Below are positions 37,001 to 43,000 of a stretch of DNA of 63,695 nt, one piece after another. This stretch comes from Thermostichus sp. DRC_bins_24. GTDB taxonomy: Bacteria; Cyanobacteriota; Cyanobacteriia; Thermostichales; Thermostichaceae. Position numbers: made by a program. The stretch lies in NCBI GenBank assembly GCA_039794845.1, contig JAUQVK010000013.1, forward strand, positions 380 to 64,074. The letters run 5' to 3'. The stretch's first letter is position 1. Every line of letters starts with the position of its first letter.

Positions 37001-40000
37001 GCCGGATCCGGGAGAGGAAGGCAAGCGCACCTTGGAGGGGATTGATGCGGATGGAGATGGCGTGCGCGATGATGTGCAGCGCTGGATTTACCGCAGGTAT
37101 CCAAATGAGGAGCGGAAGCGGAAGGGAATGTTGCGATATGCCAAGGCATTGCAAGCCAGCATTGTAAATGTGAACAGGGACAGTCGCGACGCAGATTTAA
37201 CAGTTGACGCCAAGTTCTCCGGACAAGTTGTTAGCGCAGCAGAATCGTCATGTACCGACCCAATTCGGTGATTGAATAGCGAGAACAAATGGATGTTTCG
37301 TCGAAATATTCTTCGTCTCATTAGCCCTGTCGTAGAAAACCCGTCCAAGGGCTGTAGTTACACGATTCACAAAATACTGACAGATCCCCTGAAGATGATT
37401 CCGGATTGTTTTGACCACATCATTCCAAGCAGACCCAGCAACTTATCCAGAGGTACCATCGCTTGCCACGGAACTCAGTGTTTCATTATACTGCCGCCAC
37501 CAAAATATCAGGAGAGATGATTTCTCATAAGTCTTTGAGACCTTTGATTTTGTGTCTGTAGATACGAAAGTTCTTAAGCATCAGACGATATGGTTTCCTT
37601 CGTCATATAGCGCCCTTAGAGTCACCTACGAGATAGTCAACCATGCAGAGAAATTCTAAGTTCGTTCTTGCAAATGGAGTGCTTGCAGATGGTACTAGAG
37701 CTGATATATCCGTGGATCCCATTAGTGGGAAAATTGAATCTGTAGGCTCTGTCGAACTTTTCCCGGAAGATGAAAAAATAGATTGTACAGGGATGGTGAT
37801 TTTGCCCGCAGCGGCTGAGCCCCATGCCCATCTTGACAAAGCCTTATCCTCTCGTCTTGTGCCCGCCATGCCCGTAGATTTGGCTACAGCTGTGGCCGAT
37901 TGGCACCGCATCTGGCCCACCCTCACCCACGAAGATCTGGTGCAACGGGCTAGCGAATCGGTAGAAGCCATGGTGATGCGGGGAGTGACGGCGATTCGGA
38001 GTCATGTTGATATAGGAGCGGGGGTGGGGTTACGGGGGCTTAGGGCTCTTAAGGATGTGAAGGAGCAATACCGTGATCTGGTGGATTTGCAAATTGTCGG
38101 CTTGATTGCCCATCCGCTGGTGGGGGATGAAGGAGCGGAGCATCGTGCCCTTCTGGAGCAGGGTCTTGAAGAAGGCTTGATGGATGTGGTGGGGGGCAGT
38201 CCAGACTTGGCTCCGGATCCCGTAGAGACAACCCGGATTTCGGTAGCTGCCGCTGCGCGTAGTGGGTTGCCCTTGGATCTGCATACAGATCAAACAGTAG
38301 ACCCAGATTTTTTCTACTTGCCCGACCTGGTGCGTTTGGTGGGTGAGTACGGCGTCAAAAATGCTGTAGCCAGCCATTGCATCAGTTTGGCCATCCAACC
38401 CGAAGCAGTACAGGAAAAAGTGGCGGCTGAAATGGCAGCAGCGGGAATAGCAGTCACCACCATGCCGTTGACCAGCCTGTTTTACTTTGGCTGGGATCAA
38501 CCTGTTGCCCCTCCACGGGGAGTAACGGCCATCGCCAAGCTGGAAGCAGCCGGGGTGACCGTGGCGGCAGGAGCGGATAATGTCAGGGATCTGTTCTTTC
38601 CTTACGGACGGTTTGATCCGGTCGAGACGGCAACGGTACTGGGGATGGTGGCTCATTTCACCCCCGAGCATGTTTGGAATATGTGTTCTCATGCAGCCCG
38701 CAAGGTGATGGGTTTACCGGAGGTGACCTTGGCTCCTGGATCCCCGGCTGAGCTGTTGGCCATTCAGGGCAGAAATTTAACCGATGCCTTGGCGGAGGGT
38801 AGCGAGCAGCGGGTGGTGATTCACCGAGGGCGGGTGGTGGCCAATACCTCTGTCCAAAAACAGTTGATTCGGCACTGACCCTTGAGCAGGTCTTTGATCC
38901 CGAAAAAAAGCTGAATAAGTCTGTGTTGCTGAGGGATCCCCTTTAGGCTGAAGGGGATCACTGTGGGGGAGTGTATCCTTGGAAAGTTTTGTCCTGATTA
39001 AGCAAGTTCCCGATCAAAACGCCAAGGCGGGCATCAACAGCGACGGTACGATTGACCGGGCCAAGGCCAAGCGAATGTTGAACCCCTTCGATCGCTATGC
39101 CCTAGAAGCCGCTTTGCAAACCAAGCGGCAGCATGGGGCTAGGGTGACGGCGATAACCATGGGGCCTCCTCCTGCCATAGAGATTCTCTACGAAGCCATT
39201 GCCCATGGGGTGGATCGCGGCATTTTGATGACGGATCGCCGCCTGGCGGCTTCGGATACCCTGGCCACGGCCTATACCCTGGCACAAACGGTGCGCTATG
39301 CCGGAACCCCAGACTTGATCTTCTGCGGGTTACAGACCACCGATGGCGATACGGCCCAAGTGGGGCCCCAGCTGGCAGAACGACTCGGGATCCCTCAGGT
39401 TACCTATTGTGAAGCGTTCGAGATTCGGGATGGGATCCTCGTGGCACGGCGGGCGATTGAGGGGGGATCCCAGACGGTGACAGTACCCCTACCTGTCTTG
39501 ATTACGGTGGCCAATTCGGCGCAACGCCTGGCTTATCAAACCCTGCGGGGTGCCCAACGGGTACAACAGCTGATGCGGGATGAGGTGGCCCGGGCAGAGG
39601 TGATTCAGATCATCAACTTGGAGGATGTGGGGGCGGATCCGGAGCGCTGCGGGCTGAAGGGATCCCCCACCATTGTGGCTGCTACAGAAAAAGTGGGGGA
39701 AATCGGCGGCAATTGCCAGGTGTTCCAGGGGCAGGCGGTTTCAACCTTGGTCAAGCAGCTCACCGAGGCGGCTTCCATCTCCAGTTATATTGCGACTCGA
39801 TAGAGCAATAGTCGATAGAGCAATAGTTGGATTGATCTCCTAATTACCCAGTTTTTCTAAGCGTGATTTTACAGTCATTTTTTCAGTTATTGCGCATCAA
39901 TTAAACCTCGAAATGACATATCCAAGGTTCATGGGAGTTGTGGTTTTATGATCCAGAAGCAGGTGCTGGTTTTTGCCGAACAAGTTAATGGAGAACTGCA

Positions 40001-43000
40001 ACCGATTGCTCTAGAGTTGTTGGGGGCGGGGCGGCGGCTGGCGGATAAGTTGGGAGCCACCCTGAGTGCGCTGGTGTTGGGATCCGACGTTGCCCATTTG
40101 CCGCCCATCCTGATTGGCCACGGAGCGGATCGGGTGTTTGTGGCGGATCATCCGGAATTGGCCCAGTACCGCACCTTACCCTACCGCCGGGTGATTACCG
40201 ATTTAATTAAAAGTTGGCCGGAACCCCCCCACACCATTTTGTTGGGATCTACCACCACAGGTCGGGATTTGGCCCCCCGGTTGGCCGCCCATTTGGAAAC
40301 CGGCTTGACGGCGGATTGCACCGATTTGGATATTGGCCCCTTTGAATATTCCAACAGCAAGGATCCCAATAAGTCAGGGCTCTTCCCGGATTGCTTGTAC
40401 GCGATTCGGCCCAGCTTTGGAGAGTCTCTGAAAGCCCGCATTCTGGGCCCCTGGAAAAACCCACAAATGGCAACGGTGCGTCCGGGGGTGATGGTGCCTT
40501 TGCCTTGGGATGGCTGCCGACGGGGGGAAGTCATCTCCGTGCCCGTTCAGTTGGATCCGGGGGATTTGCGTTTGCAAATTGTGGAAACCGTGCGTAATCT
40601 TTCCCAAGCGGTTGATCTGACGCGGGCGGAGGTGATCGTTTCCGGGGGGTACGGGCTGGGATCCCCCGAGGGCTTTGAACTGATGCAACAGTTGGCCGCT
40701 TGTTTCCCCAATAGCGCCGTTGGTTCCTCCCGCAAAGCGGTGGATTTCGGTTGGATCCCTTACGCCCATCAGGTGGGTCAAACGGGCAAGACCGTCCGCC
40801 CGCAGATTTACATTGCCTGTGGCATTTCCGGGGCCATTCAACATCGGGTGGGCATGGACAAATCCCAAACGATCATTGCCATTAACAAGGACAGCTCCGC
40901 CCCCATCTTCAAATTTGCCCACTATGGCATTGTCGGGGATCTCTACCAGGTGGTGCCAGAGATGATCCGGCAGCTGCGGCAGACCGAAGTTCAATCGCCC
41001 CAGAGCGCGAGTGAACGGATCCCGGTTTTGCAGGGCAGGTGAGCCTACTTCGGTTTACCACCCTTCTGCGAAGGTAGAGTCATTGCCATTACGGCCCTTA
41101 GGCGGGTCTTCCAGGACAGGGCTTGTGCTTCCTGCTCCCGCGGGGCCCGGAGGGCTAGCCCTCCAGAGGTTAGAACTCAACTTCCACAGTTGTTACACAT
41201 GACTCGCGGTGCCCTATGGTGGGCGAACGCGCCAGCGTGCCCTAGGCGTAAAGGGCTGTAAGGCTGAAACAGCTCCCTCACCCCCTTCGTGCAGCGTGGC
41301 ACCGGCCGTAGCCCCTCTCCCGCTCTGGGAGAGGGGAGTCAGAAAGGATATCGTTCTTGTGTGGAGTGACTATACCGGCAGCCAAACTACGGGAGCTGAG
41401 GTTGCATCCGGATGCCTTGGGCTGAAGAGGGATCCCCTCACCCAAGCAAAAAAATCTATCAAATTATCTTGAAATGATTAGACTGTTCTGGTAACCTCAG
41501 GTCGGTTATCTGTGATGGCAACAGAATCCTCAGGATCCTGCCGCCGGTGGCAGGCCTTCGGCGTATGTGGGGACGAAGCAAATGGCGGTACGAGTTGGGA
41601 TCAACGGCTTTGGCCGGATTGGGCGCTTGGTATTGCGGGCTGCTTGGGGTTGCCCAGAGCTGGAGTTTGTCCACATCAACGAAATCAAGGGGGGAGCGGC
41701 GACGGCAGCCCATCTGCTCAAGTTCGACTCCGTGCAAGGCCGCTGGGATATTGACCTAGAGGGATCCGGAGAGGGGCTGCGCATTCAAGACAAAACCCTC
41801 TCTTTTAGCGAATACAAGTCCCCTGGTGAGGTGCCCTGGGCAGATCTGGGGGTGGATCTGGTGCTGGAAAGCTCCGGCAAGTTCGTCAAGTCAGCAGAGT
41901 TGGATCCCTATTTCAAAGCAGGGGTGCGCAAGGTGATCGTGGCTGCCCCGGTCAAGGATGACAATGCCCTCAACATCGTCATGGGGGTGAATGATCATCT
42001 TTACGACCCGGCCCAGCATCATTTGCTCACGGCGGCTTCTTGTACCACCAACTGTCTGGCCCCTTTGGTAAAGGTGATTCACGAAGGCATTGGCATCGTC
42101 CATGGGGTGATCACCACCGTCCATGATGTCACCAATACCCAAACCATGGTGGATGCCCCCCACAAGGATCTGCGGCGTGCCCGCTCGGCTTTACTGTCTT
42201 TGGTTCCCACCACGACTGGATCCGCGACAGCGATTGGTCTGATTTACCCAGAATTAAATGGCAAATTAAATGGCCTAGCCGTTCGAGTTCCCCTCTTGAA
42301 TGCCTCATTAACCGATGCCGTGTTTGAGGTGAAGCGGCCCACCACCGTAGAAGAGGTGAATCAACTGCTGAAAACCTCGGCAGAAGGAGAACTCGAAGGG
42401 ATCCTCGGCTACGAAGAACTGCCCCTGGTCTCGGTGGATTTCAAAGGGGATCCCCGCTCTAGCATTGTGGATGGCCCCTCAACCTTGGTGGTGGATGGCA
42501 CCCAGGTGAAAATCCTGGCTTGGTACGACAATGAATGGGGCTATGCCAATCGCATGGCGGAACTGGCCCGCAAAGTGGCCCTGAGTTTGGAGGCCTAGGG
42601 TATGCTGACCGACTACGTTCATGCTGCTATGCAGCGGGCAACTTACAAAATCTTCCAGGAAGATGGTTCCTATTTTGGGGAAATTCCAGGACTACAAGGG
42701 GTTTATGCCAATGAACCGACCCTAGAAGCTTGTCGAGATGAGTTGCAGTCCGTGCTAGAAGATTGGATCCTGTTCAGCCTCAGCCATCATCTCCCTATTC
42801 CTGTATTGGAGGGTATCGATCTCAACCTTGATCTGACTCCTGTCTATACGGAAGATGTGGCTTAGTGCCCAGTTTTGGTCCTATCAAGCGCTCGGAACTG
42901 ATTCGGTATCTGAAGTCACTTGGTTTTGAGGGGCCTTTCCCGGGAAGTAAGCATCAGTTTATGAAAAAGGATGATATTCGGCTGACCCTGCCTAACCCCC

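What a model noticed while it worked through the whole genome (the two positions that open the first line are those of the whole stretch)
38979..41042. Bifurcating-type ETF plus ETF:quinone oxidoreductase kept from the non-photosynthetic ancestor
etfB/etfA (g00360-g00361) and an ETF:quinone oxidoreductase (g00218, C9:20483-22207) form a Fix/EtfABCX-like module that nearly all cyanobacteria lack. It was inherited vertically: it survives in Thermostichaceae, Gloeobacterales and a Pseudanabaenaceae, and is one etfB-etfA-QO operon in non-photosynthetic Vampirovibrionia. With no PFOR, hydrogenase or acyl-CoA dehydrogenase here, it is the candidate route for NADH-driven ferredoxin reduction in the dark (e.g. 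for nitrogenase).
Evidence so far: Families in 11/11 other genus genomes but only 32-35 of 2401 Cyanobacteriia; EtfB found in 12/12 genus and 19/22 other family genomes; ETF-QO in 0 of 30 other Cyanobacteriia sampled. Best solved relatives of EtfB are all bifurcating (4KPU 3e-46, CarD, 5OL2, LctB, 7KOE) ahead of canonical ETFs (1EFP 2e-25, human 7e-16), with the DGDTAQVGP motif. Closest ETF-QOs: Gloeobacter and Anthocerotibacter 68-69%, Pseudanabaenaceae 62%, Vampirovibrio/Melainabacteria 54-56%. In 8 of 8 close non-oxygenic loci the order is etfB-etfA-QO with EtfB/A 64-70% identical to this genome's. Quick tree: oxygenic clade 100% SH-aLRT, Gloeobacterales sister to Pseudanabaenaceae+Thermostichales. 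PFOR 0/12 genus genomes; [...]
(Added by a program. Inside this text positions count along the whole contig: contig position 380 is position 1 of the stretch shown here. "Call 12" and the like, gene names such as g00115 and contig names such as C1 are that model's own, and its searches are not shown. The text may have been shortened before it was handed on; [...] marks where a part breaks off. The agent that wrote the report below was given it as the finding of a first reader that could run no searches.)

Follow-up and report, generated by a model that had tools for sequence, protein, structure and literature searches.

The report
Electron-splitting flavoprotein module in early cyanobacteria
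Early-branching cyanobacteria keep, from before photosynthesis, a three-protein module that probably splits the electrons of NADH between ferredoxin and quinone, a trick known mostly from anaerobes, and it looks like a general respiratory input rather than a nitrogen-fixation part.

Summary
Confirmed: etfB (38979-39803) and etfA (39948-41042) carry the bifurcating-ETF signatures (DGDTAQ, Gly123, SPTxV); the partner on contig C9 is an ETF:quinone oxidoreductase-type protein with an EtfX-like 2x[4Fe-4S] tail, not FixC. EtfA occurs in 35 of 401 class genomes, all early-branching; the partner in 147 of 251 Vampirovibrionia. The three genes are one operon in 63 of 80 loci, 10 of them oxygenic. The tree matches RpoB, so vertical descent holds. 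Corrections: the 'Proteobacteria' loci are mislabelled Vampirovibrionia, but a real Nitrospinota clade exists; 22 of 35 carriers have no nifH, so it is not a Fix system. New support: 19 of 19 non-photosynthetic carriers have a second ETF, lacking the bifurcation zipper in 17 of 17 read; 23 of 25 have no NuoF, with complex I lacking nuoEFG; a duplicated partner sits behind FNR in 11 of 16 loci. Best reading (0.55): NAD(P)H to ferredoxin plus quinone, feeding ferredoxin-dependent complex I/NDH-1, nitrogenase only incidentally. Unassayed; FNR and NDH-2 offer alternative routes.

The parts
38979..39803 (+). etfB, small ETF subunit of bifurcating (group 2) type, 274 aa
   Evidence: Pfam PF01012; five best PDB relatives all bifurcating; GC3 0.67 like housekeeping neighbours
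39342..39359 (+). DGDTAQ 'peptide zipper' (residues 122-127) with Gly123, the site that admits the bifurcating FAD
   Evidence: aligns to A. fermentans Gly123; criterion from PMC8958531 and PMC12630350; 108 of 108 distinct family sequences
39663..39677 (+). SPTIV loop of EtfB (residues 229-233), counterpart of T. maritima P239/V242
   Evidence: criterion from PMC10734219; SPT[IV]V in 108 of 108
39804..39947 (.). 144-nt AT-rich spacer (GC 0.36) between etfB and etfA; the genes abut or overlap in most relatives
   Evidence: no terminator-like site found
39948..41042 (+). etfA, large ETF subunit with the electron-transfer FAD domain, 364 aa
   Evidence: Pfam PF01012 + PF00766; best PDB relative CarE 7.5e-95
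40407..40427 (+). RPSFGES of EtfA (residues 154-160): group-2 motif RPxFGG with a family-specific Gly-to-Glu change
   Evidence: 108 of 108 distinct sequences. The third gene, the ETF-QO-type partner, lies outside the window at G000:C9:20483-22207

Best explanation
EtfB, EtfA and the C9 protein form a flavin-based electron-bifurcating NAD(P)H:ferredoxin + quinone oxidoreductase. Inferred steps: NADH reduces a second FAD in EtfB; one electron goes via the EtfA FAD to the two [4Fe-4S] clusters and FAD of the partner and on to the quinone pool (plastoquinone here); the other reduces ferredoxin. The reduced ferredoxin feeds the general pool, chiefly ferredoxin-dependent complex I/NDH-1 that lacks its own NADH module, when photosystem I is idle; in the diazotrophs nitrogenase can draw on it. 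Shown: sequences, motifs, gene linkage, fold model, distribution, tree. Not shown: cofactors, nucleotide specificity, activity, expression. The module was inherited from the common ancestor of Cyanobacteriia and Vampirovibrionia and lost in later cyanobacteria.
For: DGDTAQ, SPT[IV]V in 108 of 108 distinct EtfB, the published bifurcating signature. Eight Cys in 96 of 96 partners versus 1 of 105 ETF-QO-like proteins outside the family; EtfX has two clusters and matches this tail. Three-gene operon without a conserved dehydrogenase neighbour in 63 of 80 loci. No acyl-CoA dehydrogenase in 23 of 35 oxygenic carriers. 19 of 19 non-photosynthetic carriers have a second ETF, none of 17 read has DGDTAQ. 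NuoF missing in 23 of 25 non-photosynthetic and 20 of 24 oxygenic carriers, NuoD present in 24 of 25, nuoD abuts nuoH in 3 of 3 operons read. Paralogous partner directly behind a PetH-like FNR in 11 of 16 loci. Tree congruent with RpoB; Vampirovibrionia monophyly not rejected, p-AU 0.425.
Against: No assay or expression data. Two group-2 motifs are altered throughout the family: RxGV is RAKA/RARA and RPxFGG is RPSFGE; the Arg itself does not discriminate (447 of 449 canonical ETFs keep it). The top NCBIfam match, far under its cut-off, is the acryloyl-CoA reductase ETF, recalled as NADH-using but not bifurcating. The module is not needed for a headless complex I: 13 of 13 Vampirovibrionia without it have NuoD and 4 of 5 tested lack NuoF, as do most cyanobacteria. 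Carriers have other ferredoxin sources: 2-oxoacid:ferredoxin oxidoreductases in 5 of 5 Vampirovibrionia, FNR in this genome. NDH-2-like genes are present here and in 4 of 5 other carriers. The partner's nucleotide-binding start is GGSxSN rather than GxGxxG.
Confidence: 0.55

Rival explanations
1. Two-FAD ETF that oxidises NAD(P)H and passes both electrons to quinone through the partner without reducing ferredoxin: a non-pumping NADH dehydrogenase or redox valve.
For: Family-wide changes in two motifs next to the bifurcating FAD; best NCBIfam match is the acryloyl-CoA reductase ETF (its lack of bifurcation is recalled); bifurcating ETFs leak electrons to O2, a cost in an oxygenic cell; no ferredoxin gene is conserved beside the operon.
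Against: The zipper, Gly123 and SPTxV loop are invariant across three classes; NDH-2-like enzymes already cover this job in 4 of 5 carriers tested and here; the second Fe-S cluster and the FNR pairing would be unexplained.
Confidence: 0.22
2. Conventional ETF/ETF-QO relay that takes electrons from a flavin dehydrogenase (glycolate dehydrogenase GlcD, glycerol-3-phosphate dehydrogenase, or acyl-CoA dehydrogenases in Vampirovibrionia) to quinone.
For: Partner is closest to mitochondrial ETF-QO; this genome has GlcD, seven further GlcD/GlcE-like FAD oxidoreductases and GlpD; glcD lies directly upstream of etfA-QO in G276; non-photosynthetic carriers have 4-11 acyl-CoA dehydrogenases (10 of 10), and their second ETF may use this QO.
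Against: glcD adjacency in one genome only among all loci held; no dehydrogenase is a conserved neighbour; a separate ETF without the zipper exists for the acyl-CoA dehydrogenases; canonical ETFs have DDxxNQ, not DGDTAQ.
Confidence: 0.13
3. Dedicated Fix system that supplies nitrogenase at night.
For: The nif cluster is on the same contig (window 1623-17712); no PFOR, NuoF/HoxF or hydrogenase here; a small night peak of nif expression is reported for mat Synechococcus.
Against: 22 of 35 carriers have no nifH and one has it split; five genus genomes kept etf without nifH; nif and etf are far apart in the two closed genus genomes; reported nitrogenase activity peaks in early-morning light; 13 of 25 genomes without the module have nifH.
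Confidence: 0.05
4. On origin only: the module entered the ancestor of oxygenic cyanobacteria by early transfer from a Vampirovibrionia lineage rather than by descent.
For: Best trees leave Vampirovibrionia paraphyletic with weak support (83/87; 76/57); 0 of 47 genomes of the third class have the orthologue; a Nitrospinota clade proves at least one transfer between phyla.
Against: Monophyly of Vampirovibrionia not rejected (p-AU 0.425); present in 9 of 11 of their families; divergence comparable with RpoB.
Confidence: 0.25

Closest known systems
Fix/EtfABCX (Thermotoga maritima 7KOE; Azotobacter FixABCX)
   Same: Group-2 EtfAB motifs, quinone-reducing FAD domain, two [4Fe-4S] clusters, predicted NADH to ferredoxin + quinone reaction.
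   Different: Three chains, not four; FAD domain much closer to ETF-QO (3.7e-56) than FixC (2e-20); EtfAB closer to clostridial Bcd/Car ETFs than to 7KOE; no link to nif.
ETF:ubiquinone oxidoreductase (pig 2GMH) with canonical ETF
   Same: Same overall single-chain fold (model TM 0.81, pLDDT 88.7).
   Different: Two clusters predicted (8 invariant Cys); partner ETF is bifurcating-type; no acyl-CoA dehydrogenase in the genus.
Clostridial bifurcating ETFs (EtfAB-Bcd 4KPU/5OL2, CarCDE 6FAH, LctBCD 7QH2)
   Same: Best sequence relatives of both subunits; DGDTAQ, Gly123, SPTxV.
   Different: High-potential branch is a quinone reductase, not a CoA-ester or lactate enzyme; RxGV and RPxFGG altered; hosts are aerobes.
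Hypothetical ETF:quinone reductase proposed for Nitrospina gracilis (PMC3578206)
   Same: The authors guessed an unidentified ETF:quinone reductase coupling NADH to ferredoxin and quinone; this family has a Nitrospinota clade.
   Different: I did not show that N. gracilis itself has it; the labelled hits are uncultured Nitrospinota.

Membership tests
Group-2 (bifurcating) ETF | DGDTAQ zipper with Gly123 in the small subunit | tested here: met
   criterion seen in passages of PMC8958531 and PMC12630350
Group-2 (bifurcating) ETF | SPTxV loop (T. maritima P239, V242) | tested here: met
   GLKGSPTIV; 108 of 108
Group-2 (bifurcating) ETF | RxGV motif (T. maritima R38) | tested here: inconclusive
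   Arg27 kept, GV replaced by a basic stretch RAKAKR
Group-2 (bifurcating) ETF | RPxFGG motif in the large subunit (R140) | tested here: inconclusive
   RPSFGE: Arg and F-G kept, last Gly is Glu in 108 of 108
Group-2 (bifurcating) ETF | Two FAD per heterodimer, NADH-reducible, crossed potentials, ferredoxin reduction | not testable with these tools
   needs purified protein
FixABCX / EtfABCX | Separate FixC (about 430 aa) and FixX genes | tested here: not met
   single 574-aa chain, closer to ETF-QO
FixABCX / EtfABCX | Two [4Fe-4S] clusters on the quinone branch | tested here: met
   8 invariant Cys in 85 aligned sequences; match to 7KOE_D, E 2e-4; motif only, clusters not observed
Fix (nitrogen fixation, group 2D2) | Tied to nif genes in diazotrophs | tested here: not met
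   nifH in 12 of 35 carriers; not adjacent
Canonical ETF / ETF-QO | AMP-type small subunit (DDxxNQ) and acyl-CoA dehydrogenase donors | tested here: not met
   DGDTAQ; 0 of 12 genus genomes with PF00441
Canonical ETF / ETF-QO | ETF-QO fold | tested here: met
   Foldseek 2GMH E 3.6e-44, TM 0.81

The most novel reading that the evidence does not exclude
This module is the ancestral NADH 'head' for the headless complex I shared by Vampirovibrionia and cyanobacteria: before photosystem I existed, ETF bifurcation helped make the reduced ferredoxin that complex I needed, and early-branching oxygenic cyanobacteria still run flavin-based bifurcation into plastoquinone in the dark. It would be a third architecture of quinone-linked bifurcation (group-2 EtfAB plus a two-cluster ETF-QO), shared by ancient transfer with Nitrospinota.
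Probability: 0.3. Interest if true: 0.88.

Novelty: new variant of a known kind. Interest (0 to 1): 0.68.

Why it matters
Flavin-based bifurcation by an ETF in an oxygenic phototroph was not found in my ten library searches. If the activity is real it offers an answer to how NADH enters a complex I without NuoEFG, a gap noted for Melainabacteria in PMC6349859, and identifies a respiratory part that predates oxygenic photosynthesis and was later lost. It is directly testable: three soluble or monotopic proteins from a thermophile, with cultured carriers among Thermostichus and Gloeobacter.

Tried and rejected
Complex prediction of EtfA domain II with the QO: no verdict. RNA runs: no RNA holder listed, so no reads were laid. 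Diel metatranscriptome paper PMC11788075: no etf passage in the text; 20 supplements searched without a cyanobacterial etf row; its data files 8 and 9 were too large to read and may hold the expression profile. Garcia Costas 2017 (PMC5626958), the defining classification, is not held; it may already list these proteins. Promoter/terminator scan: nothing above chance. Earlier scan notes: nothing relevant. Rejected: recent foreign insertion (GC3 0.67-0.69 like gapdh and murA; operon broken at different joints in different lineages with the genes kept). Rejected: transfer to Proteobacteria or crown cyanobacteria from record labels (RpoB of G401, G402, G405 with Obscuribacter, G404 with Vampirovibrio; G403 was left out because its RpoB is split over contigs). 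Rejected: reverse, confurcating NADH synthesis from ferredoxin and plastoquinol, uphill on recalled potentials (about -430 and +100 mV against -320 mV). The upstream amidohydrolase is a late neighbour (3 of 11 other genus genomes). Metagenome scan for the Nitrospinota partner gave 1 locus only.
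Full report
Observation. The window holds etfB at 38979-39803 (274 aa, TTG start) and etfA at 39948-41042 (364 aa), both matching the Pfam ETF families. 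Contig C9:20483-22207 encodes a 574-aa protein related to ETF:quinone oxidoreductase. The five best solved relatives of EtfB and of EtfA are all bifurcating ETFs. GC3 of the three genes (0.67-0.69) equals that of neighbouring housekeeping genes.

Motifs. I took the criteria from passages of three papers (PMC10734219, PMC12630350, PMC8958531); the defining paper was not available. EtfB has DGDTAQ with Gly123, the published signature of bifurcating ETFs against DDxxNQ in canonical ones, and the SPTxV loop. Among distinct family sequences held (at least 45% identical to ours, near full length), DGDTAQ is in 108 of 108, SPT[IV]V in 108 of 108. Two motifs deviate throughout: RxGV reads RAKA or RARA in most, and RPxFGG reads RPSFGE in 108 of 108. 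The Arg of that motif is kept but is also kept in canonical ETFs, so it does not discriminate.

The partner is not FixC. Its FAD domain scores 3.7e-56 against pig ETF-QO and 2e-20 against FixC; its tail matches EtfX weakly. An AlphaFold model from an 85-sequence alignment (pLDDT 88.7) superposes on 2GMH with TM 0.81 and on FixC with 0.61. Eight C-terminal cysteines are invariant, present in 96 of 96 distinct members from loci and in 1 of 105 long ETF-QO-like representatives outside the family. In the library of 50% clusters, full-length matches drop from 54% identity to 40% or less with nothing between. So this is a discrete family: group-2 EtfAB with a two-cluster ETF-QO.

Linkage. All three genes lie in one operon in 63 of 80 loci from the genome scan: 53 of 56 non-oxygenic loci (the other three are cut by contig ends) and 10 of 24 oxygenic ones, including Gloeobacterales and other genera of this family. 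The operon has broken at different joints: etfBA apart from QO in this genus, etfA-QO apart from etfB in G238 and G276. No dehydrogenase or ferredoxin is a conserved neighbour.

Distribution. ETF_alpha is in 35 of 401 class genomes: this genome, 20 of 22 others of its family, 13 genomes of three families that branch basally and group with Gloeobacterales-labelled loci, and 1 of 39 of family f5; 0 of 7 of the other family in the order. The QO orthologue is in 147 of 251 Vampirovibrionia, that is 0 of 74 of the small-genome family f48 and 147 of 177 of the rest, in 9 of 11 families. It is in 0 of 47 genomes of the third class, 15 of which have a canonical-like ETF-QO.

Origin. A concatenated EtfB+EtfA+QO tree (31 rows, LG+G4) gives the oxygenic clade 100/100, G238 plus this family 100/99, and this family alone 96/96, with the Gloeobacterales lineages outside. 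RpoB gives the same order. Identity to Vampirovibrionia is 54-66% (EtfB), 56-68% (EtfA), 48-58% (QO) against 65.5-66.6% for RpoB. Vampirovibrionia are unresolved at the base and their monophyly is not rejected (p-AU 0.425; one long outgroup row, no mixture model). Vertical descent is the better reading (about 0.75). The two 'Proteobacteria' genomes and two labelled as crown cyanobacteria have RpoB inside Vampirovibrionia clades, so those labels show no transfer. However, a deep clade of the same QO and EtfA carries Nitrospinota labels and falls outside all Cyanobacteriota members in a FastTree (98); locus L251 has the same etfB-etfA-QO operon and motifs. At least one ancient transfer between phyla occurred; its direction is unknown.

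What it is not. nifH passes its cut-off in 12 of 35 carriers, is split in one and not found in 22, including all 14 outside this family and five genomes of this genus. The nif cluster is in this window (1623-17712) but far from etf in the two closed genus genomes. A diel study reports nitrogenase activity peaking in early-morning light, with a small night peak of transcripts (passages of PMC11788075). Acyl-CoA dehydrogenase is not found in 23 of 35 carriers, and most of the 12 hits are weak. PFOR is in 4 of 35 carriers against 12 of 25 non-carriers; kin are not independent, so I draw no statistic.

What points to ferredoxin and respiration. All 19 non-photosynthetic carriers examined have a second etfA; none of the 17 second pairs read has DGDTAQ or RPxFG, and these genomes have 4-11 acyl-CoA dehydrogenases (10 of 10), so beta-oxidation has its own ETF. 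NuoF/HoxF is not found in 23 of 25 non-photosynthetic and 20 of 24 oxygenic carriers, but is found in 7 of 7 genomes of the third class and 3 of 3 of f48. NuoD is in 24 of 25 and three operons read nuoABCD-HIJ(K) without EFG; PMC6349859 notes the same headless complex I and does not name this operon in the passages I saw. In Vampirovibrionaceae a duplicated QO lies directly behind a PetH-like FNR (47% identical to this genome's) in 11 of 16 non-operon loci from four genera, tying this QO family to ferredoxin-type chemistry.

Against. Headless complex I does not require the module: 13 of 13 Vampirovibrionia lacking it have NuoD and 4 of 5 lack NuoF. Carriers have other sources of reduced ferredoxin (2-oxoacid:ferredoxin oxidoreductases in 5 of 5 Vampirovibrionia; a short FNR and zwf here by motif) and another NADH outlet (NDH-2-like here and in 4 of 5). 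glcD precedes etfA-QO in one genome. Nothing is assayed.

Mechanism. Most likely (0.55): NAD(P)H reduces the bifurcating FAD; the high-potential electron passes through the EtfA FAD, the two clusters and the QO FAD to quinone, the low-potential electron to ferredoxin. On recalled potentials (NADH -320, ferredoxin about -430, plastoquinone about +100 mV) the sum is strongly downhill. Reoxidising that ferredoxin at NDH-1 would pump protons that NDH-2 cannot; nitrogenase is one optional sink. Rivals: non-bifurcating NADH:quinone relay 0.22, dehydrogenase-fed ETF 0.13, dedicated Fix 0.05.

Novelty. It works like EtfABCX but fails membership (no separate FixC/FixX, no nif tie). Ten searches of the open library (listings and abstracts, with passages read in eight papers) found no description of it in cyanobacteria; most subscription papers are absent, and the genes are already annotated as ETF in databases. 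PMC3578206 guessed such an enzyme for Nitrospina (passage). Verdict: new variant of a known kind, interest 0.68.

Noticed in passing
L332:2996-5683 (G751) and L414-L422, L426: Vampirovibrionaceae carry a cyanobacterial-type FNR (47% identical to this genome's PetH) in tandem with a second copy of the two-cluster QO: a possible NADPH:quinone module and a clue to the origin of PetH.
   Followed up: partly
L251:4060-7584; proteins P0281-P0337, P0385-P0453: Nitrospinota-labelled clade with the same etfB-etfA-QO module; single hits labelled Nitrospira, Nitrospirae and Geobacteraceae.
   Followed up: partly
L340:1195-5998 (G276): glcD directly upstream of etfA-QO, with etfB on another contig.
   Followed up: partly
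window 1623-17712: nif cluster (nifV, K, D, H, U, S, fdxN, B; dpsA; nifE, N, X, W) followed by a 4Fe-4S/HTH protein at 18563-20173 resembling the regulator CnfR (name recalled).
   Followed up: partly
window 37643-38878: Cytosine-deaminase-like amidohydrolase with lower GC3 (0.54) just upstream of etfB; adjacent in only 3 of 11 other genus genomes.
   Followed up: partly
window 41567-44389: ArsJ-associated GAPDH and arsJ transporter (both over NCBIfam cut-offs), an arsenate-resistance pair with a small HicB-like ORF between (name recalled).
   Followed up: no
G006, G007, G238: The three smallest carriers (2.2-2.4 Mb, 99% complete) have neither nifH nor a chlL-like match at E<=1e-60: possible loss of dark protochlorophyllide reductase.
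   Followed up: no
G004:C1:712478-713294: nifH split into two pieces, probably a frameshift.
   Followed up: no
G401, G641, G402, G643, G405: Obscuribacter-type genomes have a second, divergent rpoB-like gene.
   Followed up: no
window 24775-25812: Chlorophyll-binding antenna protein of the IsiA/Pcb family.
   Followed up: no
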